Shown: piece after piece, positions 8,990-15,187 of the stretch
Layout: every line of letters begins with the position of its first letter
Position numbering within the stretch: the stretch's first letter is position 1
IMG/VR virus record: IMGVR_UViG_3300021138_000001
DNA from: a virus
Lineage: Duplodnaviria > Heunggongvirae > Uroviricota > Caudoviricetes
Length of the DNA: 64,000 nucleotides
Strand: one strand, 5' to 3'
Program-made: the position numbers and the translations under genes
The notes under the pieces: generated by a model
The model's database searches: none
The model's input: the letters and a program-made list of their open reading frames with translations, nothing else
What the model was told of the DNA's origin: nothing

Positions 8990-9687
8990 ATGGCAACAAA
9001 TAATAAGCTATCTGCATATATTCTACTAGATCGTTCTAGTTCAATGGCTGGTGCTCGTTGGGAGAATGCAATTGGTTCTATCAATCAGTACGTTAAGTCT
9101 CTAAAGGAAGAAAGGTTTCTGCTGAAGTTACAGTAGCTACTTTTGATTCTAATTACGTTTATACTCCACGTCCTATGTACGTCGGTGGGGGCATTCAGAT
9201 GAATGCTGATGCTTTAACTCCTAAGGAAGTTGTAGACCCAAATTCATTTGACATTATTCGAGATAGTGTTACACTATCAAAGTTCAAGGATCTGAGTCCT
9301 ACAGAAACTAGCCCACGCGGTGGTACTCCTCTATACGACTCTACTGCAAAGCTAATTAATCTTGCGGAAGCAGTTGGTAACGAAAAGACTGTTATTATCA
9401 TCATGACGGATGGTGAAGAAAACTCTTCTAAGGCTTACACACTACAAGCTATTCGTGATCGTATTGTTACCTGTAAGGCTCGTAATTGGGAAGTTCTGTT
9501 CCTTGGTGCTGAGTTTAATGCCGATAATATCGCTACTCAATATGGGCTAAGTAAGGGTAAGGTTATTAACACTACTCTTGAGAATACCTCGCGCTCCATG
9601 GATTTCTACGCTAAGGCTTCAGCCAGTTATGCTGACTTTGGTACTGCTGTTGATACCATGGCAGTCAAGGCTGATCTAGCAAATTAA
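8990..9687 (+). pseudogene. von Willebrand factor A (vWA) domain protein interrupted by a -1 frameshift near 9108-9116 (GAAGAAAGG)
   Basis: Frame 2 (8990-9136) encodes MIDAS LLDRSSSMAG then stops; frame 1 continues VSAEVTVATFDS...IIIMTDGEEN (vWA core) to 9687. Confidence 0.55.
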
Positions 9688-9691
9688 TATC

Positions 9692-9699
9692 TATAAATA
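9692..9699 (+). promoter_or_regulatory. T4-type late promoter box TATAAATA upstream of tmRNA gene
   Basis: Exact TATAAATA. Confidence 0.35.
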
Positions 9700-10035
9700 G
9701 TTTTGTTCGTTGATACGGACTTAAAACCGGGGAAGACAGGGGTGCGATTCCCCTCGCCTCCACCAGTAAACACACGATAACAGGACGCTGGCTCTGTGAA
9801 GCGGGATATCGGGGTAGCTGCCGAGAAGACAGGGAGAGCATCGTGTGTTTTCTCATGGGGGCGTATAGTATCGATTCACGGCTAGTAGGAATGTGGAGAA
9901 CACGGTAAGAAACGACCGCCAATCAGTTCGATAACCTAAATGCAAACGAAAACTTTGTATCTCAAGAATTCGCTCTAGCAGCTTAATTCTTATGCGTATG
10001 GGCTCCACGTGGAAACAGAACGGGCCTACTTTTAT
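9700..10035 (+). ncRNA. ssrA: two-piece (circularly permuted) tmRNA, acceptor piece then excised hairpin then coding piece
   Basis: T-arm AGGGG-TGCGATT-CCCCT 9738-9754; acceptor 3' CGCCTCC + A + CCA 9755-9765; intervening hairpin AAACACACGAT (9768-9778)/ATCGTGTGTTT (9841-9851); coding piece 5' end GGGGGCGUAUAGUAUCGAUUCACGG 9857- (cf. canonical GGGGCUGAUUCUGGAUUCGACGGG) pairs 7/7 with acceptor 3' strand; tag ORF 9942-9986. Confidence 0.75.
9942..9986 (+). other. tmRNA tag reading frame GCA...TAA encoding ANENFVSQEFALAA*
   Basis: Resume codon GCA, 14 codons, C-terminal ALAA followed by TAA (cf. E. coli ANDENYALAA). Confidence 0.7.
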
Positions 10036-10048
10036 AATGGAGAAAACT

Positions 10049-10207
10049 ATGACAGATGCACACAATGCTACTATCAATCAAATTATTCTAAAGCTTGCCA
10101 TCGATTATGAAGAAAATAAACATTCTCAGGAAGAAGGTAAGTATCCTACCACTACACAAATTCTCAAGACTGCATCAAAGTTTAAGGCATTTGTAAATGC
10201 AAATTAA
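10049..10207 (+). CDS. small hypothetical protein (start placed after AATGGAGA ribosome-binding context; upstream part of ORF 9992.. overlaps tmRNA)
   Basis: In-frame ATG 10049 following TAATGGAGAAAACT. Confidence 0.35.
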   Translation: MTDAHNATINQIILKLAIDYEENKHSQEEGKYPTTTQILKTASKFKAFVNAN

Positions 10208-10397
10208 GTCTGCAGTAAAAATTCAAAAAGATCGTTGGGGTACTATTTGGAGCAACACATACGGTAATATGTGGGACACTCAATCCCCACAATCTTATCT
10301 AGTTCCAGAAAATTATAAAGAATCCTCGAAAAAGTATGTGCCAGTTGTTGGACAATCGTCTACTCTTAGGCACGGTAATCAAATAAGCTGGAGCTAA
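10197..10397 (+). CDS. hypothetical protein
   Basis: ORF track. Confidence 0.3.
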   Translation: MQIKSAVKIQKDRWGTIWSNTYGNMWDTQSPQSYLVPENYKESSKKYVPVVGQSSTLRHGNQISWS

Positions 10398-10403
10398 ACT
10401 ATC

Positions 10404-10736
10404 ATGAAGAAAAATAATATTTCTAATTTTAATGGAGAACTTGTCGCTTCTAATCAAATTTTACAGGTTATTAATGACAATTATTTGACACAACTTACTA
10501 TAAATAAAATTGTTGTTCTTCCGTTGCAAAAGCTGCAAGGCAACGTTGACAGTAAGACCAGTAAGGATGTAATTATACTCATTACTTCTGGTTCAGGATC
10601 AATGGAGGTAAATGGCAAGAGCGCACCCATCAATGCGGGTGAAATCATTAGTGTAAAGGCTTCCGAGTCATTTGTTATTATCAATGATGCGCTTGATGCT
10701 ATTTTGGAATTTGTTTCAATACTATCTACGAAATGA
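10404..10736 (+). CDS. hypothetical protein
   Basis: ORF track. Confidence 0.35.
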   Translation: MKKNNISNFNGELVASNQILQVINDNYLTQLTINKIVVLPLQKLQGNVDSKTSKDVIILITSGSGSMEVNGKSAPINAGEIISVKASESFVIINDALDAILEFVSILSTK

Positions 10737-10768
10737 ATTTGACTTCCTCCCTATAAAGGAGAAGCCAT

Positions 10769-11317
10769 ATGGTTTTCAGATACGACTATAGTAAAGAATT
10801 ATTCGCATTTTTAACTGTGATTAGTTTAATTTTTATACAAAGCCTACAATACACTAAACCAATGCCTGTACCACAGGTAATTTATATTGAAAAGCCTGTG
10901 GTACTACAATCAATTAATCCCGCTGCATTTAATACAGCCCAAGTTAATTGTCTAACTGAAGCGATTTATTATGAGGCTAGAAATCAGCCAGTGAAAGGCC
11001 AAAAGGCCGTAGCACACGTAATTATGAATCGGGTAAAAGATGAAAGTTATCCGAAAAGCGTGTGTGGAGTAGTACATCAGAAGGAACGACATGTGTGTCA
11101 GTTCACTTACTTCTGCGAAAAACATAGATCACCAATAGATATTGTGTCATTAAATACTGCAAAAGAAGCTGCGTTGGTAGTTTTGCAGGGTGAACAAGAT
11201 TTTACTTCTGGTGCATTATATTATCATGCGAAGTATATTCGTCCTCCTTATTGGAGAAAGCATATGAAATTAGCATTTGACATTGGTGACCATATATTCT
11301 ATAATAGGACATCATAA
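10769..11317 (+). CDS. SleB-like cell-wall hydrolase (Hydrolase_2 family) with N-terminal membrane anchor; putative endolysin
   Basis: TEAIYYEARNQPVKGQKAVAHVIMNRV...VVHQKERHVCQFTYF matches SleB/Hydrolase_2 signature; hydrophobic N-terminus. Confidence 0.65.
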   Translation: MVFRYDYSKELFAFLTVISLIFIQSLQYTKPMPVPQVIYIEKPVVLQSINPAAFNTAQVNCLTEAIYYEARNQPVKGQKAVAHVIMNRVKDESYPKSVCGVVHQKERHVCQFTYFCEKHRSPIDIVSLNTAKEAALVVLQGEQDFTSGALYYHAKYIRPPYWRKHMKLAFDIGDHIFYNRTS

Positions 11318-11335
11318 CAACCAACGAGGTCTTTA

Positions 11336-11563
11336 ATGGCGATTACAAATAAAGCAAAAGAATTTTATGAAACCATTGAAGACCTCGTCTGGCAACATGA
11401 TATCGAATATATTGATGCTATTGTCATGCATTGTGAAAAGCACGATATAGAAATTGAAAGTATTGCATCTCTTATTAAGAATAATGAATACTTCAAAAGT
11501 AAGATTCAATTTGAAGCAGAAAAACTAAATTTTCTACCAAAAACCTCACGTCTGGATATATAG
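11336..11563 (+). CDS. hypothetical protein
   Basis: ORF track. Confidence 0.3.
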   Translation: MAITNKAKEFYETIEDLVWQHDIEYIDAIVMHCEKHDIEIESIASLIKNNEYFKSKIQFEAEKLNFLPKTSRLDI

Positions 11564-11565
11564 TC

Positions 11566-12144
11566 ATGGATGCATTTGATGCTTATGTTTTAGCATTGGC
11601 TCTAAAAAGGCATTTTACTCCAAACGGGAATTATGATTATATTAAATATAACGGAAAGATAAAGGCTTCTAAGACGAGTTTTGATACTAGAAGCGATAAG
11701 TACTTTTTTCATAAGTTATCTAAGAAATCTGATCCAGAAGGATTCCTAATTGCCAATTATGTAAAGCACGGTTCTAATATCTGGATTGGTGATCTTGTGG
11801 GCGATCAAAAATATGATGATACCTATAAAGAATGGCTGAAGAAAAAAGAATCAATTTCATATATATTCAAGAACGATTTTGAACAGATTTCAGAATCTCT
11901 GGATGCTAATCTCAAAGTTGTTGATGGGCAATATCCAAAACTTCTTGAACTTTATATGAGAGGAAAAATTAATATAGAAACGATTATTATTCTTGATAAA
12001 CTTCTACATATTCTGGTACAATGGAAGAATAATATTCAAGATGTGGCTTTGTGGCCAGACATATATAGTATGTGTATAAAGTATACACCATTCGTTTCAT
12101 ATGACGAAAAGAAAATTAAAAAAATTATTTTTGAAACTTTATAA
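11566..12144 (+). CDS. hypothetical protein
   Basis: ORF track. Confidence 0.35.
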   Translation: MDAFDAYVLALALKRHFTPNGNYDYIKYNGKIKASKTSFDTRSDKYFFHKLSKKSDPEGFLIANYVKHGSNIWIGDLVGDQKYDDTYKEWLKKKESISYIFKNDFEQISESLDANLKVVDGQYPKLLELYMRGKINIETIIILDKLLHILVQWKNNIQDVALWPDIYSMCIKYTPFVSYDEKKIKKIIFETL

Positions 12145-12899: not shown

Positions 12900-12907
12900 T
12901 ATAAATA
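12900..12907 (+). promoter_or_regulatory. T4-type late promoter box TATAAATA
   Basis: Exact TATAAATA upstream of tRNA-like gene and gene 32. Confidence 0.35.
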
Positions 12908-12929
12908 AATGATATATATATAAGAATAT

Positions 12930-13003
12930 GCGGCTTTAGTATACTGGTATTATAATCGCCTTCCAAGCCAAAGAAACGGGTTCGATTCCCGTAAGCCGCT
13001 CCA
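12930..13003 (+). tRNA. tRNA or tRNA-like gene with encoded CCA; canonical acceptor stem and T-arm, non-canonical D/anticodon region
   Basis: Acceptor GCGGCTT/AAGCCGC 7/7; T-arm ACGGG-TTCGATT-CCCGT; discriminator T then CCA; D-loop GG present, but I could not fold a 5-bp anticodon stem by eye. Confidence 0.5.
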
Positions 13004-13037: not shown

Positions 13038-13376
13038 TTGTCATACAAAAACATACGGAGAAATACTATGTCTAATTTTGCTAATCTAAAGCGTTCAAGC
13101 AACGACTCTCTATCAAAGCTAACTCAAGCGGTAGAGGCAATTAATAAGCCAACCTCAAATTCATCTGAAGATACTCGTTTCTGGAAGCCAGAAGTCGATA
13201 AGGCTGGTAATGGTTCTGCTACAATTCGGTTTCTTCCTGCTCCTTCTGGTGAAGAAATGCCATTCATTCGTATTTGGGATCATGGTTTTCAAGGCCCAAC
13301 TGGTAAGTGGTATATCGAAAAGTCCCTAACCACAATCGGCCAAGTCGATCCCGTTAATTTTCTAGCGGCTGCATAA
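13038..13376 (+). CDS. 32: gene 32 ssDNA-binding protein, 5' exon/N-terminal fragment (reads into insertion before stopping)
   Basis: NGSATIRFLPA...IWDHGFQGPTGKWYIE aligns with T4 gp32 (AGNGQAVIRFLPS...HGFKKNGKWYIE); homology ends after WYIEKS. Confidence 0.65.
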   Translation: MSYKNIRRNTMSNFANLKRSSNDSLSKLTQAVEAINKPTSNSSEDTRFWKPEVDKAGNGSATIRFLPAPSGEEMPFIRIWDHGFQGPTGKWYIEKSLTTIGQVDPVNFLAAA

Positions 13377-14560
13377 AGCGATTTATGTAGAAAAAACTGT
13401 TAATTGCTGGAACACCCTTAGAGGTAACAGAACCACAAAGATGTGTTAAACTCAGAAAGTTTATAAATAAAGAATAACCAATATAGGAAATCTTTATGAA
13501 TAACATTTGGGAAATATGTAAAATAACAGGCAAAACTTTTAAAACAGCAAGAGGATTTTTAAATCATCTAAGAACACAAAAAATATCTTCTAAGGAATAT
13601 TATGATAAATTTCATAAAGACCAAAATGAAGGCATTTGCTACTGTGGTAATCCGACTACGTATCATGGATTTAGTTACAAAAAATATTGTAGTGATATAT
13701 GTGCATGTAAATCGGAAGAACATAGATTGGCTGTTTCAGAAAAATTTATAAAAAATCCAAAGGCATTAGATAGTTTTAAAATATCTAGGAAAGGGGTTGA
13801 CACTAACGTAAAGAAAAGAAGAGAAACCATCAAGAAAAAGTGTAATATTCTGAATATATCCACAGAAAAATATTATTCAGAACATAGTAAAAAAGCTTTT
13901 TCTAATATGTCATCAGAACAAGTAAATGCTAGAACTTTAAAAAGCATGAAAACGAAGTTGTCTGTTGGTAATGTTGGGGGTCGATCTGGGTATAAGCCCT
14001 ATCCATTCTTTGATGAAACTTTATCTTTACAAGGTTATGAACCAATAGTTCTTGATTGTTTAATTGAAGATTTTTTCTTTGGTAAAGACGATATTGTTGG
14101 TGGAAAGTCTGGAGTACCTATCATAAAATATGATAATAAAATGTATTTTCCTGATTTTTATCTACCAAAATATAATCTAATAATTGAAGTAAAATCTACA
14201 TATACATACAATCTAAACAAAAATATTGTTCATAAAAAATGTCAAGCCTCTGTTGAATCTGGATATTCTATAGTTTTGCTAGTTTTAAATAAACACGAAG
14301 CGAGAAATCGCAAACTTGACGGTTCTAAGAATCTGTTACATTGGGCAATCAGCAGCCAAGCTCCTAAACCTACGTGGTATGGAGAAGGTTCATCGACTAT
14401 CCCTTAGGGGAGTAGAGAGCAAGCCAATGGCTCTCGAAATGCAGTTACTCTCTCAGAGAGTGTGATATAGTCAGTTCTTTAGGGAAACTTAAAGCAGTTG
14501 AATAGACGGGTATGATTTTGCTGATCATATTGAACAAAAAGTAGTGAATATAATTCAGAA
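13336..14560 (+). mobile_element. ~1.2 kb insertion splitting gene 32: probable group I intron (or non-spliced HEG insertion) carrying a homing-endonuclease-like ORF (boundaries approximate)
   Basis: gp32 homology stops ~13335 and resumes ~14560; ORF in middle preceded by TATAAATA; architecture (~160 nt, ORF, ~150 nt) typical of T4 group I introns. Confidence 0.5.
13496..14407 (+). CDS. PD-(D/E)XK-type homing endonuclease-like protein with N-terminal Cys-rich region
   Basis: C-terminal YFPDFYLPKYNLIIEVKS (PD...E-V-K); CxC clusters near N-terminus; located inside gene 32. Confidence 0.5.
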   Translation: MNNIWEICKITGKTFKTARGFLNHLRTQKISSKEYYDKFHKDQNEGICYCGNPTTYHGFSYKKYCSDICACKSEEHRLAVSEKFIKNPKALDSFKISRKGVDTNVKKRRETIKKKCNILNISTEKYYSEHSKKAFSNMSSEQVNARTLKSMKTKLSVGNVGGRSGYKPYPFFDETLSLQGYEPIVLDCLIEDFFFGKDDIVGGKSGVPIIKYDNKMYFPDFYLPKYNLIIEVKSTYTYNLNKNIVHKKCQASVESGYSIVLLVLNKHEARNRKLDGSKNLLHWAISSQAPKPTWYGEGSSTIP

Positions 14561-15187
14561 CTATGGGCTATCTCAGAGGACGATAACTCCCCAACTCGTA
14601 AGCAAGCGCGGGACCAAAAGCGCCGTCTACACTTTATCTCAAATATTTTGGTTATTAAGGACACTAATCGTCCCGAGAATGAAGGCAAGGTCTTCCTATA
14701 CCAATATGGTAAGAAGATTTTTGATAAGCTTAACGATCTAATGAATCCTCAGTTTGATGATGAAACTGCAATCAATCCATTTGATCTGTGGAATGGTGCT
14801 AACTTCAAGCTACGCATTCGTCAAGATGGGAAGTATCGTAGTTATGATAAGTCGGAGTTTGACTCACCATCAGCTATCCCAGGTTCAGACGAAAAGCTTG
14901 AGGCTATCTGGAATCAAGAATATGCCCTAAAGGAATTTGTTGATCCTGCTAACTTCAAGAGTTATGATGAGCTTAAGAAGCAACTACACCTAGCTCTAGG
15001 TCTTCAATCTGCCTCCGCTCCGGTAAATCGTGCTGAACGTACTGTTCTACCAGAAGCGTCTGCACCAAACTTTAAGGAACGCGCTGCTTCTCCAGCAGCA
15101 GAAAGCGAGACAATTCCTTGGAATACGGATGAAGATGAAGATGCATCATACTTCGAAAAGCTAAAGAGACTAGCTTCAGAAGACTAA
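14534..15187 (+). CDS. 32: gene 32 ssDNA-binding protein, 3' exon/C-terminal part (5' boundary approximate; listed TTG start is not the true start)
   Basis: [35 protein letters not shown]...[11 protein letters not shown] aligns with T4 gp32 [33 protein letters not shown]...EGANFVLKVKQ; acidic C-terminus. Confidence 0.65.
   Translation, partial: [217 protein letters not shown]

What the first reader, a model, noticed from the sequence alone, without database searches (positions are those of the whole stretch)
9700..10035. Two-piece (permuted) tmRNA with tag peptide ANENFVSQEFALAA
An acceptor piece comes first: a T-arm then CGCCTCC-A-CCA, ending at 9765. A ~90-nt excised segment follows, whose ends form an 11-bp hairpin (AAACACACGAT/ATCGTGTGTTT). 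The coding piece then begins GGGGGCGUAUAGUAUCGAUUCACGG, which pairs with the acceptor 3' strand. Downstream is a resume codon GCA and a 14-codon tag ending ALAA-TAA. Permuted tmRNA genes are known from alphaproteobacteria, some cyanobacteria and a few phages. Finding one here suggests a host-lineage signal and phage manipulation of trans-translation. The annotated ORF 9992..10207 overlaps the 3' part of the RNA and should be shortened to 10049.
Basis: partly seen in the sequence, partly recalled or inferred. Interest (0 to 1): 0.8.

Follow-up and report, generated by a model that had tools for sequence, protein, structure and literature searches.

The report
Two-piece tmRNA gene in phage
A T4-like phage carries a complete, circularly permuted ("two-piece") tmRNA gene, the RNA that rescues stalled ribosomes and tags the unfinished protein for destruction; the call is correct, but such genes are already described in related aquatic phages, so it is a new example rather than a new kind of thing.

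Summary
Rfam's permuted-tmRNA model scores 112.5 bits (threshold 47) at 9704-9986. The alphaproteobacterial model scores 79.1 bits (threshold 50) at 9646-10030.

The gene reads: acceptor piece ending in CCA at 9765; a 91-nt intervening hairpin; a coding piece starting at G9857; resume codon GCA at 9942; tag ANENFVSQEFALAA; stop at 9984-9986; and a 3' pseudoknot reaching 10028.

At least 36 distinct relatives occur on viral contigs. They support the P2 helices and the 3' pseudoknot by covariation. ARAGORN misses the gene, but one base change (C9919T) restores the call with this exact tag, so that negative is a near-threshold miss.

The gene lies in a T4-like genome between a PD-(D/E)XK nuclease gene and gp33/gp59/gp32. 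Phage Melnitz has a published two-piece tmRNA in the same position (PMC9004378).

The T-loop UGCGAUU and the nearest cultured phage (Caulobacter phage Cr30) suggest a Caulobacterales host. This is not proven.

Shortening ORF 9992-10207 to start at 10049 is supported.

Verdict: a real feature and a new member of a known kind, of modest interest.

The parts
9692..9699 (+). TATAAATA, a T4-type late-promoter motif about 5 nt upstream of the first paired base of the RNA
   Evidence: Sequence. Seven of the 8 TATAAATA copies in the window are on the + strand. Six of these lie at most 45 nt upstream of a gene start: tmRNA, tRNA-Gly, and the ORFs at 13496, 20200, 26524 and about 47263. The phage encodes the late-transcription coactivator gp33 (PF16805). 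The total count is not enriched (8 found against 11 expected), so promoter use is inferred.
9704..9765 (+). Acceptor piece. It holds the 5' strands of P2 (9704-9708, 9715-9720, 9727-9729, 9732-9734), the T-arm (9738-9742 / 9750-9754, loop UGCGAUU), the acceptor 3' strand (9755-9761), discriminator A9762 and encoded CCA (9763-9765).
   Evidence: Rfam alignment; pair counts on 14 related genes.
9766..9856 (+). Intervening segment of 91 nt, presumably excised. It has an 11-bp basal hairpin (9768-9778 / 9840-9850) and ends in the leader ...UCUCAU just before G9857.
   Evidence: Fold: -28.1 kcal/mol, z = -1.8. All 36 distinct family genes have a basal stem of at least 6 bp, against 38% of shuffles. 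Length in relatives ranges from 24 to 176 nt. No ORF and no Rfam match.
9857..9863 (+). 5' strand of the acceptor stem (GGGGGCG) and the start of the coding piece. G9859.U9759 is the G3:U70 alanine identity pair.
   Evidence: Sequence. The stem is invariant in 14/14 related genes, including the U.G pair.
9875..9902 (+). 3' strands of the P2 helices: 9875-9877, 9879-9881, 9889-9894 and 9898-9902.
   Evidence: 88.5% of cells paired against 41-50% when partners are slid. Nineteen pairs change on both sides. The middle helix contains conserved non-canonical G.A / A.A positions.
9903..9929 (+). Candidate pseudoknot PK1. Stem 1 is CGGU 9903-9906 / ACCG 9915-9918. Stem 2 is GAA(A)C 9909-9913 / GUUC 9926-9929.
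   Evidence: Stem 1 is modelled by Rfam. Stem 2 rests on inspection only. A crude pseudoknot search was not better than shuffles. C9919, just 3' of stem 1, is the base that toggles ARAGORN detection.
9942..9986 (+). Tag reading frame: resume codon GCA 9942-9944, peptide ANENFVSQEFALAA, stop TAA 9984-9986.
   Evidence: Rfam alignment. ARAGORN on the C9919T variant reports the resume consensus and this tag. Relatives keep the ANDN/ANEN...ALAA-stop frame while the codons differ.
9994..10028 (+). 3' H-type pseudoknot. Sa is GCGU 9994-9997 / ACGU 10007-10010. Sb is UGGGCUC 9999-10005 / GGGCCUA 10022-10028. The conserved loop motif GAAACAGAA lies at 10012-10020.
   Evidence: 84.3% of cells paired against 42-62% when slid. 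Eleven of 13 pairs change on both sides, across 19 genes.
10030..10033 (+). U-run after the last helix; the likely 3' end or terminator tail of the coding piece.
   Evidence: Sequence. T-runs follow the same helix in several relatives. Inferred.
10049..10207 (+). Downstream 52-aa ORF at its preferred start, with GGAG at 10039-10042. It is not part of the RNA; it replaces the 9992 start.
   Evidence: Sequence. The ENA gene call gives 52 aa and the JGI call gives 71 aa. No Pfam or PHROG match.

Best explanation
This is a functional ssrA gene of the circularly permuted, alphaproteobacterial type, encoded by a T4-like phage of about 156 kb.

Proposed mechanism:
1. One precursor is transcribed rightward. 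It probably starts at the T4-type late promoter motif TATAAATA (9692-9699) and ends after the last helix and U-run at about 10030.
2. Host tRNA-processing enzymes cut it. RNase P cuts 5' of G9857, and 3' trimming stops at the encoded CCA (9765). This discards the 91-nt intervening hairpin.
3. The acceptor piece (about 9704-9765) and the coding piece (9857 to about 10030) stay together through the 7-bp acceptor stem and the P2 helices.
4. Host AlaRS charges the CCA end with alanine, using G3:U70 and discriminator A.
5. With host SmpB and EF-Tu, the RNA enters ribosomes stalled on broken or stop-less mRNAs.
6. Translation resumes at GCA 9942 and adds ANENFVSQEFALAA. The ALAA end then hands the product to host ClpXP-type proteases.

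Shown here: gene identity, architecture, conservation and covariation. Inferred from established tmRNA biology: transcription start, processing, charging, SmpB use and tagging.

The likely benefit to the phage is to keep ribosomes recycling late in infection, when host RNA is being degraded and host ssrA is no longer made.
For: - Covariance models: Rfam RF04321 gives 112.5 bits and RF01849 gives 79.1 bits, both full-length. The alpha model is the best of the tmRNA clan.
- tRNA-like end: acceptor stem 7/7 with G3:U70, A73 and an encoded CCA.
- Covariation: P2 and the T-arm covary in 14 related genes, with a covariation score of 0.53 against 0.06-0.09 for slid controls. The 3' pseudoknot covaries in 19 genes.
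- Tag frame: preserved while its codons diverge. The window reads ANENFVSQEFALAA and L019 reads ANENDAYEGLALAA on a body that is 97% identical.
- Family size: 54 loci and at least 36 distinct permuted genes on IMG/VR contigs. Eleven were checked with Rfam and all exceed threshold.
- Synteny: Melnitz has the same genomic block order, PhoH, PD-(D/E)XK..., tmRNA, gp33, gp59..., gp32. Its two-piece ssrA is published (PMC9004378).
- ARAGORN calls the gene after one base change.
- The sequence is identical in three other public assemblies.
Against: - ARAGORN does not call the native sequence.
- PK1 stem 2 is weak (4 bp with a bulge) and is not statistically supported.
- No SmpB gene was found in the 64-kb window, so activity would depend on host SmpB.
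- There are no expression, processing or tagging data.
- The overall count of TATAAATA is not enriched, so the promoter assignment rests on position only.
Confidence: 0.88

Rival explanations
1. The RNA is made, but it works mainly as a competitor or re-director of the host system rather than as a plain rescue factor. It might titrate host SmpB away from host tmRNA. Alternatively, it might add a phage-specific tag whose variable middle changes adaptor recognition, and so changes the fate of tagged proteins.
For: - Tag interiors differ among genes whose structural cores are at least 95% identical. One cluster of 7 genes carries 6 different tags, and the window differs from L019 in this way.
- A phage tRNA-like-domain-only tmRNA fragment is reported to inhibit host tmRNA (PMC4131195 and PMC11915505).
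- Buchholz et al. also raise selective tagging as an option (PMC9004378).
Against: - The gene keeps every element needed for complete trans-translation, including the canonical ANxN start and ALAA end of alphaproteobacterial tags.
- Variable tag middles are also normal among bacteria, as the bacterial tags show.
- No phage adaptor or protease partner was identified nearby.
Confidence: 0.08
2. It is a passenger or relic. Either it is a recently captured host ssrA (or a fragment left by an integrative element that targets ssrA), or it is a decaying copy with no function for the phage.
For: - tmRNA genes are common integration sites, and fragments of them occur in prophages (PMC9004378, PMC4383910).
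- The 5' 235 nt are 97% identical to genes on otherwise unrelated viral contigs (L019, L078, L098), which shows recent horizontal movement.
Against: - The gene is complete and all helices are intact.
- It occupies the same syntenic slot as in Melnitz and in relatives L013, L091, L108 and L112, whose tmRNAs have diverged with compensatory changes. This indicates long-term selection.
- No integrase is nearby.
- No bacterial genome holds the 25-nt start of the coding piece, and none of 70 alpha-type bacterial loci is close overall.
Confidence: 0.03
3. It is a chance resemblance inside protein-coding or spacer DNA, and the annotated ORF 9992-10207 is correct as called.
For: One gene caller (JGI) extends an ORF back to 9992. 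ARAGORN is negative on the native sequence.
Against: - E-values of about 1e-20 from two covariance models.
- Covariation in two independent parts of the RNA.
- The 9992 start lacks a ribosome-binding site and lies inside a covarying pseudoknot.
- Another caller starts the ORF at 10049.
Confidence: 0.01

Closest known systems
ssrA of Methylophilales phage Melnitz and related pelagimyophage-like contigs (Buchholz et al. 2022, PMC9004378; MZ577097.1 45984-46436)
   Same: - It is a two-piece, alpha-type tmRNA in a T4-like aquatic myophage.
- It has the same genomic slot, upstream of gp33, gp59 and gp32 and downstream of PhoH and the PD-(D/E)XK nuclease.
- Rfam scores are similar: 113 and 107 bits.
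- The intervening-segment basal stem has the same AAACAC/GUGUUU sequence, and the 3' pseudoknot has the same AAACAGAA loop.
- The tag has the same style: ANDNYVPVDYALAA.
   Different: - Melnitz has the T-loop GGCAGUA, typical of most alphaproteobacteria. The window has UGCGAUU.
- Melnitz has a glutamine riboswitch immediately 3' of the RNA (52.8 bits). The window has none.
- The Melnitz intervening segment is about 140 nt and contains a ribosome-binding site plus ATG. The window's is a 91-nt hairpin without an ORF.
- Melnitz's gene is reported to lie behind an early promoter. The window's lies behind a late-type TATAAATA motif.
- The proteins are only about 36% identical (gp6).
Bacterial two-piece tmRNA of Alphaproteobacteria (Rfam RF01849; Caulobacter crescentus prototype, Keiler, Shapiro and Williams 2000, cited from PMC9004378)
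   Same: - The gene is permuted, with a tRNA-like domain, P2, a resume codon in the UAAAU-GCA-AAC-GA context, and an ANxN...ALAA tag.
- The model matches end to end.
- The T-loop UGCGAUU is shared with Caulobacterales genomes: Caulobacteraceae, Hyphomonadaceae and Phycosocius.
   Different: - The gene is encoded by a virus.
- The intervening segment is longer than the roughly 30 nt of the model consensus.
- The third acceptor-strand base differs: CGCCUCC here against CGGCUCC in the Caulobacterales loci.
- No bacterial locus sampled is close overall.
tmRNA genes of phiCbK-like and giant Caulobacter phages (e.g. CcrBL10, CcrColossus, phiCbK)
   Same: - The T-arm plus acceptor-CCA stretch is 94-97% identical over 36 nt.
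- The gene is permuted and is recognised by RF04321 (L076 = CcrBL10, 82 bits).
   Different: - These are high-GC siphophages or jumbo phages, not T4-like.
- The rest of the RNA and the tag are unrelated in sequence.
- The GenBank records show no annotated feature under the match.
One-piece tmRNAs of mycobacteriophages (Bxz1 group) and the tRNA-like-domain-only RNA of phage DS6A (PMC4131195)
   Same: These are phage-encoded components of trans-translation.
   Different: The gene order is standard, not permuted. DS6A lacks a tag frame, whereas the window gene has a full one.

Membership tests
tmRNA, permuted (two-piece) form, alpha subtype (Rfam RF04321 / RF01849) | Covariance-model score at or above the curated gathering threshold, over the full model length | tested here: met
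   RF04321: 112.5 bits against 47, model positions 1-213/213. RF01849: 79.1 bits against 50, positions 1-355/355. The alpha model is the best of clan CL00001.
tmRNA, permuted (two-piece) form, alpha subtype (Rfam RF04321 / RF01849) | tRNA-like domain: a 7-bp acceptor stem and a 5-bp T-stem with a 7-nt loop | tested here: met
   Acceptor stem 9755-9761 / 9857-9863. T-arm 9738-9742 / 9750-9754. Both are 100% paired in 14 related genes, and two T-stem pairs covary.
tmRNA, permuted (two-piece) form, alpha subtype (Rfam RF04321 / RF01849) | Alanine identity elements: G3:U70, discriminator A and a 3' CCA | tested here: met
   G9859.U9759, A9762 and an encoded CCA at 9763-9765. The U.G pair is invariant in 14/14 genes. 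Actual charging was not tested.
tmRNA, permuted (two-piece) form, alpha subtype (Rfam RF04321 / RF01849) | Circular permutation: the 3' (acceptor) part lies upstream of the 5' (coding) part, separated by an intervening segment | tested here: met
   CCA ends at 9765 and G1 lies at 9857, separated by a 91-nt hairpin. The same order holds in 54 related loci.
tmRNA, permuted (two-piece) form, alpha subtype (Rfam RF04321 / RF01849) | P2 helices joining the two pieces | tested here: met
   The outer and inner helices are 90-93% paired and nearly all pairs covary. The middle helix is 58% paired, with conserved non-canonical positions.
tmRNA, permuted (two-piece) form, alpha subtype (Rfam RF04321 / RF01849) | Pseudoknot PK1 just upstream of the resume codon | tested here: inconclusive
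   Stem 1 (CGGU/ACCG) is modelled by Rfam. Stem 2 (GAA(A)C/GUUC) rests on inspection. A crude search was no better than shuffles: 50% of shuffles scored as well.
tmRNA, permuted (two-piece) form, alpha subtype (Rfam RF04321 / RF01849) | Tag reading frame: an Ala resume codon in the conserved context, a short ORF, a hydrophobic ...LAA end and an in-frame stop | tested here: met
   CCUAAAU-GCA-AAC-GAA..., 14 codons, ALAA-UAA. The frame is conserved across relatives despite divergence.
tmRNA, permuted (two-piece) form, alpha subtype (Rfam RF04321 / RF01849) | Structured 3' region (pseudoknot) after the tag | tested here: met
   H-type pseudoknot at 9994-10028 with loop GAAACAGAA. It is 84% paired against 42-62% when slid, and 11 of 13 pairs covary.
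tmRNA, permuted (two-piece) form, alpha subtype (Rfam RF04321 / RF01849) | Detection by ARAGORN (heuristic tmRNA finder) | tested here: inconclusive
   The native sequence is not called. C9919T alone gives 'tmRNA* permuted, ANENFVSQEFALAA'. The relative L013 is also missed, while 5 other relatives are called.
tmRNA, permuted (two-piece) form, alpha subtype (Rfam RF04321 / RF01849) | Processing into two RNAs, SmpB and EF-Tu binding, and trans-translation activity | not testable with these tools
   This needs RNA end-mapping, charging assays and tag proteomics in infected cells.
ssrA fragment left at an integration (att) site of a mobile element | Only the 3' part of tmRNA is present, next to an integrase | tested here: not met
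   Both pieces, the tag and the pseudoknots are present. The neighbours are a vWA protein, small ORFs, a cell-wall hydrolase, gp33 and gp59, with no integrase.
tRNA-like-domain-only mini-tmRNA (phage DS6A type) | No tag reading frame | tested here: not met
   A complete 14-codon tag frame is present.

The most novel reading that the evidence does not exclude
The tmRNA may be one component of a phage 'RNA damage-control' island rather than an isolated accessory gene. Within 8 kb on one strand lie:
- an RNA ligase (4989-6080);
- two YrlA-like tRNA-mimic RNAs (about 6926-7112 and 7340-7440);
- a Ro60-like DUF2828/vWA protein (7456-8865);
- a second vWA protein;
- the tmRNA;
- a tRNA-Gly.

Several of these lie behind T4-late-type promoter motifs. 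On this reading, the island keeps translation running when host RNase-based defences, or the phage's own nucleases, cut mRNAs and tRNAs late in infection.

On the same reading, the fast-changing tag interior and the swapping of tmRNA 5' modules between unrelated phages reflect selection on how tagged proteins are handled in a particular host.
Probability: 0.15. Interest if true: 0.55.

Novelty: new member of a known kind. Interest (0 to 1): 0.3.

Why it matters
- **Annotation.** The result adds an RNA gene of about 330 nt and corrects the start of a neighbouring ORF.
- **Tool behaviour.** ARAGORN can miss genuine permuted tmRNAs by a single base. The Rfam RF04321 and RF01849 models should therefore be run on phage genomes as well.
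- **Biology.** The result extends the published Melnitz/pelagimyophage observation to a different T4-like lineage, probably one that infects Caulobacterales. Such genes turn out to be common on viral contigs: at least 36 distinct genes came from two pattern scans. They share a constant core but have variable tags and intervening segments.
- **Limits.** The result does not open a new mechanism.

Tried and rejected
1. **Host copy, exact search.** The 25-nt start of the coding piece was searched in 185,579 species genomes and gave no hit. The gene is therefore not a recent capture from a sequenced host.
2. **Host copy, tag pattern.** A scan with TAAATGCAAACGAWAACTTTG found 70 loci, nearly all Alphaproteobacteria. 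None resembles the window gene outside the T-arm or the start of the tag. This gives only a class-level or order-level signal.
3. **Isolated phages, DNA level.** blastn and megablast found only the 36-nt T-arm match to Caulobacter phages and a weak 3' match to Sinorhizobium phage Phosso. No close cultured relative exists.
4. **Glutamine riboswitch as in Melnitz.** It is absent from the window at E up to 1.
5. **A function for the 91-nt intervening segment.** It has no ORF and no Rfam hit, and its fold z-score is only -1.8. Its identity with L019 is no greater than that of the flanking mature parts (2 differences in 91 nt). Nothing beyond a processing hairpin is supported.
6. **Homology of the downstream 52-aa ORF to small ORFs that follow the tmRNA in relatives.** The C-termini look alike by eye, but BLASTP finds no alignment. 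This claim is dropped.
7. **SmpB in the window.** tblastn found nothing (best E = 5.5).
8. **Statistical support for PK1.** The simple search used was not significant.
9. **Intervening-segment length as the cause of ARAGORN's miss.** This is rejected: shortening the segment to between 20 and 80 nt did not help. The cause is C9919.
10. **Caulobacter phage Cr30.** Only its first 50 kb were fetched. No tmRNA is annotated there. The rest was not scanned.

Full report
**1. The observation**

- T-arm: AGGGG-UGCGAUU-CCCCU, 9738-9754.
- Acceptor 3' strand: CGCCUCC, 9755-9761, followed by A9762 and CCA 9763-9765.
- Intervening segment: 9766-9856 (91 nt). AAACACACGAU (9768-9778) pairs with AUCGUGUGUUU (9840-9850). 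The minimum-energy fold keeps this 11-bp stem (-28.1 kcal/mol, z = -1.8).
- Coding piece: GGGGGCG at 9857-9863 pairs 7/7 with the acceptor 3' strand. This includes G9859.U9759, the G3:U70 wobble that marks alanine acceptors.
- Tag: GCA at 9942 opens 14 codons reading ANENFVSQEFALAA, closed by UAA at 9984-9986.

**2. Is it more than chance?**

Yes. Rfam's merged permuted-tmRNA model RF04321 matches 9704-9986 end to end at 112.5 bits (gathering score 47, E = 3.9e-21). The alphaproteobacterial model RF01849 matches 9646-10030 at 79.1 bits (gathering score 50, E = 8.8e-20). RF01849 is the best member of the tmRNA clan.

ARAGORN reports only tRNA-Gly(UCC) at 12930-13003 and no tmRNA.

- The same ARAGORN version calls the 97%-identical gene of locus L019 as 'tmRNA* (permuted)'. 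It also calls four other relatives and misses one, L013.
- Shortening the intervening segment does not help.
- Chimeras map the cause to offsets 40-70 of the coding piece.
- The single change C9919T makes ARAGORN report a permuted tmRNA with resume consensus CCUAAAUGCAAACGAAAA and tag ANENFVSQEFALAA.

The negative is therefore a near-threshold heuristic miss, not evidence against the gene.

**3. Comparative evidence**

Two pattern scans of IMG/VR gave 54 loci with the permuted arrangement. These comprise at least 36 distinct full-length genes. The eleven I passed through Rfam all exceed threshold.

Pair counts for the tRNA-like domain plus P2, on an alignment of 14 diverse members:
- 88.5% of cells are paired, against 41-50% when partners are slid.
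- 19 of 30 pairs change on both sides.
- The covariation score is 0.53, against 0.06-0.09 for the slid controls.
- The acceptor stem, including the U.G pair, is invariant.

After the tag there is an H-type pseudoknot.
- Sa is 9994-9997 / 10007-10010.
- Sb is 9999-10005 / 10022-10028.
- The loop motif GAAACAGAA also appears in the Rfam alpha consensus.
- In 19 genes it is 84% paired, against 42-62% when slid, and 11 of 13 pairs covary.

PK1 is less secure. Its first stem (CGGU/ACCG) is in the Rfam model. Its second stem (GAA(A)C/GUUC) rests on inspection only, and a crude search was no better than shuffles.

The tag frame is conserved as a frame. Relatives read ANDNFAPRLALAA, ANDNFAYGDYALAA, ANDNFAPSESFALAA and so on, always ending ...(L/I)AA-stop.

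All 36 genes have a basal stem of at least 6 bp in the intervening segment (38% of shuffles do). Its length ranges from 24 to 176 nt.

**4. Context**

The window is a T4-like phage. It encodes:
- gp59 and gp32;
- the late-transcription coactivator gp33 at 11336-11563;
- baseplate and tail proteins.

G+C is about 36%. The best cultured match for gp6 is Caulobacter phage Cr30 at 43% amino-acid identity. Rhizobium and Sinorhizobium T4-like phages, Melnitz and Pelagibacter phage HTVC008M follow at 35-36%.

The stretch 4456-11865 is identical in JGI, ENA and Logan assemblies. The ENA contig is 156,302 bp.

The gene order is PhoH, PD-(D/E)XK nuclease..., tmRNA..., gp33, gp59..., gp32. Phage Melnitz has the same order. 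Its two-piece ssrA was described by Buchholz et al. 2022 (PMC9004378). In a database of 18,146 phage genomes, they found 133 unique tmRNA structures (in 402 phages), of which 53 were two-piece; 17 of 47 Melnitz-like contigs carry one.

Melnitz's gene scores 113 and 107 bits. It has a glutamine riboswitch just 3' of it. The window has no such riboswitch.

Immediately upstream of the window's RNA is TATAAATA (9692-9699), the T4 late-promoter consensus. The motif is not enriched overall (8 found, 11 expected). However, 7 of the 8 copies are on the coding strand, and 6 of these lie just upstream of gene starts. Given the presence of gp33, late expression is a reasonable inference.

**5. Mosaic structure**

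Three viral contigs from other metagenomes (L019, L078, L098; contig lengths 25-259 kb) share about 235 nt at 97% identity with the window. The shared block runs from the start of the acceptor piece, through the whole intervening segment, to PK1. Identity then drops abruptly. These contigs have:
- a different tag (ANENDAYEGLALAA);
- a different but isostructural 3' pseudoknot;
- a sigma-70-like promoter instead of TATAAATA;
- no other gene in common with the window.

Conversely, syntenic relatives (L013, L091, L108, L112) have clearly diverged tmRNAs.

Clusters of genes with at least 95% identical cores carry different tags and intervening segments. The structural core therefore moves or is homogenised between phages, while the tag interior and the intervening segment turn over quickly.

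**6. Host signal**

No bacterial genome contains the 25-nt start of the coding piece. A scan with the resume and tag-start pattern found 70 loci, almost all Alphaproteobacteria. None is close overall.

Of the 63 loci in which I could parse a T-arm, only 7 have the window's T-loop UGCGAUU. All the named ones belong to Caulobacterales: Caulobacteraceae, Hyphomonadaceae and Candidatus Phycosocius. The rest, like Melnitz, have GGCAGUA or GGCGGUA.

PhiCbK-like Caulobacter phages share the T-arm and acceptor at 94-97% identity. Together with the Cr30 affinity, this points to a Caulobacterales host.

Two cautions apply. The bacterial sample was chosen by a tag pattern. And Melnitz shows that an alpha-type tmRNA can sit in a phage of a gammaproteobacterium.

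**7. The ORF claim**

The 9992 ATG lies inside the covarying pseudoknot and has no Shine-Dalgarno sequence. The in-frame ATG at 10049 has GGAG 6 nt upstream. The ENA assembly's gene caller already starts the ORF there (52 aa), whereas the JGI caller gives 71 aa. The shortening is supported.

I could not show homology between this small protein and the ORFs that follow the tmRNA in relatives.

**8. Mechanism and rivals**

The best explanation is an ordinary two-piece tmRNA that uses host RNase P, AlaRS, SmpB and proteases, expressed late to keep ribosomes recycling. Identity and architecture are shown here. Processing, charging and tagging are inferred from established tmRNA biology.

- A decoy or re-targeting role cannot be excluded, but nothing specific supports it.
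- A relic or att-fragment reading is contradicted by the gene's completeness, synteny and covariation.
- Chance is excluded.

No smpB was found in the window (weak test).

**9. Verdict**

It is a new member of a known kind: two-piece tmRNAs of aquatic T4-like phages. Interest is modest at 0.3.

The more unusual material nearby is listed under things noticed in passing. It includes the YrlA-like tRNA mimics beside a Ro-like gene and the split gp32.

Noticed in passing
window 6926-7112 and about 7340-7440 (+), upstream of ORF 7456-8865: Two YrlA-like, circularly permuted tRNA mimics lie next to a Ro60-like gene. The gene matches Pfam DUF2828 plus DUF7788 and PHROG 850 'RNA-binding protein'.

Module 1 reads, in order:
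- outer stem AGGUUGU / ACAACCU;
- T-arm GCAGG-UUCGAGU-CCUGC (6968-6984);
- acceptor 3' strand CUUCGCC, then G, then CCA;
- a 72-nt hairpin;
- acceptor 5' strand GGUGAAG (7068-7074);
- a D-arm.

Relatives show covarying acceptor stems (CACCCGC/GCGGGUG, UCUCUCC/GGAGAGA, CCUCCCG/CGGGAGG), closed by 4- to 132-nt loops. The outer stem shows a compensatory change. Nineteen of 52 sequences (the 51 loci encoding the protein, plus the window) have at least one such module. Rfam gives no hit.
   Followed up: partly
window 13038-13376, 13496-14407, 14648-15187 (+): The gp32 single-strand-binding gene is split. The N-terminal part matches PF08804 positions 1-41 and the C-terminal part matches positions 94-204. 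A 303-aa DUF7487 ORF, preceded by TATAAATA (13462-13469), lies between them. This may be an intron or a mobile-element insertion. Rfam found no group I intron at gathering threshold.
   Followed up: partly
window 8990-9136 and 9175-9687 (+): A vWA-domain protein directly upstream of the tmRNA appears as two ORFs in different frames: a DxSxS N-terminus, then a TDGEEN-containing body. The sequence is identical in three other public assemblies, which argues against an error of a single assembly; the samples may be related.
   Followed up: partly
Relatives L021, L025, L028, L085 (intervening segments) and Melnitz L211:11070-11220: In several related phage tmRNA genes, the intervening segment carries a ribosome-binding site plus a small ORF. 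L021 and L025 have a conserved hydrophobic peptide (...YI(L/I)WSI(I/A)ADITL(V/L)SGI(I/V)YL(V/I)FF). L085 has a 52-aa basic ORF that fills the whole segment. The excised spacer seems to serve as a cargo site. The window's segment has no ORF.
   Followed up: partly
window about 9695-9930 against L019:6726-6960, L078 and L098: A 235-nt block comprising the acceptor piece, the intervening segment and the coding-piece 5' end is 97% identical between otherwise unrelated viral contigs. Identity breaks sharply on both sides, and the tags differ. This indicates recombinational exchange of tmRNA modules between phages.
   Followed up: partly
window 9919: ARAGORN v1.2.41 detection of this permuted tmRNA depends on one base. 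The native C, and A or G at that position, give no call; T gives a full call. Surveys of phage tmRNAs based on ARAGORN alone will undercount.
   Followed up: yes
window 12900-13003 (+): tRNA-Gly(UCC) at 12930-13003 is preceded by a TATAAATA motif at 12900-12907. Like the tmRNA, it may be transcribed late.
   Followed up: no
window 4989-6080 to 13003 (+): RNA-related functions are clustered on one strand: an RNA ligase (PF09414 with a PHA02142 OB-fold), Y-like RNAs, a Ro-like protein, vWA protein(s), the tmRNA and a tRNA. This may be an RNA repair and quality-control island.
   Followed up: no
window 7270-7326 (+): A hairpin (GGCUCC...GGAGCC) lies between the two Y-like modules. It is 83% conserved in locus L228. 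Its only Rfam match is a sub-threshold hit to Dictyostelium Class I RNA (25.5 bits, E = 0.24), probably by chance.
   Followed up: no
L040:6046-6110 and L033:5839-5903: Type II hammerhead ribozyme matches (39.7 bits, gathering score 37) lie about 1.4 kb upstream of a short tmRNA-like 3' fragment on two viral contigs unrelated to the window.
   Followed up: no
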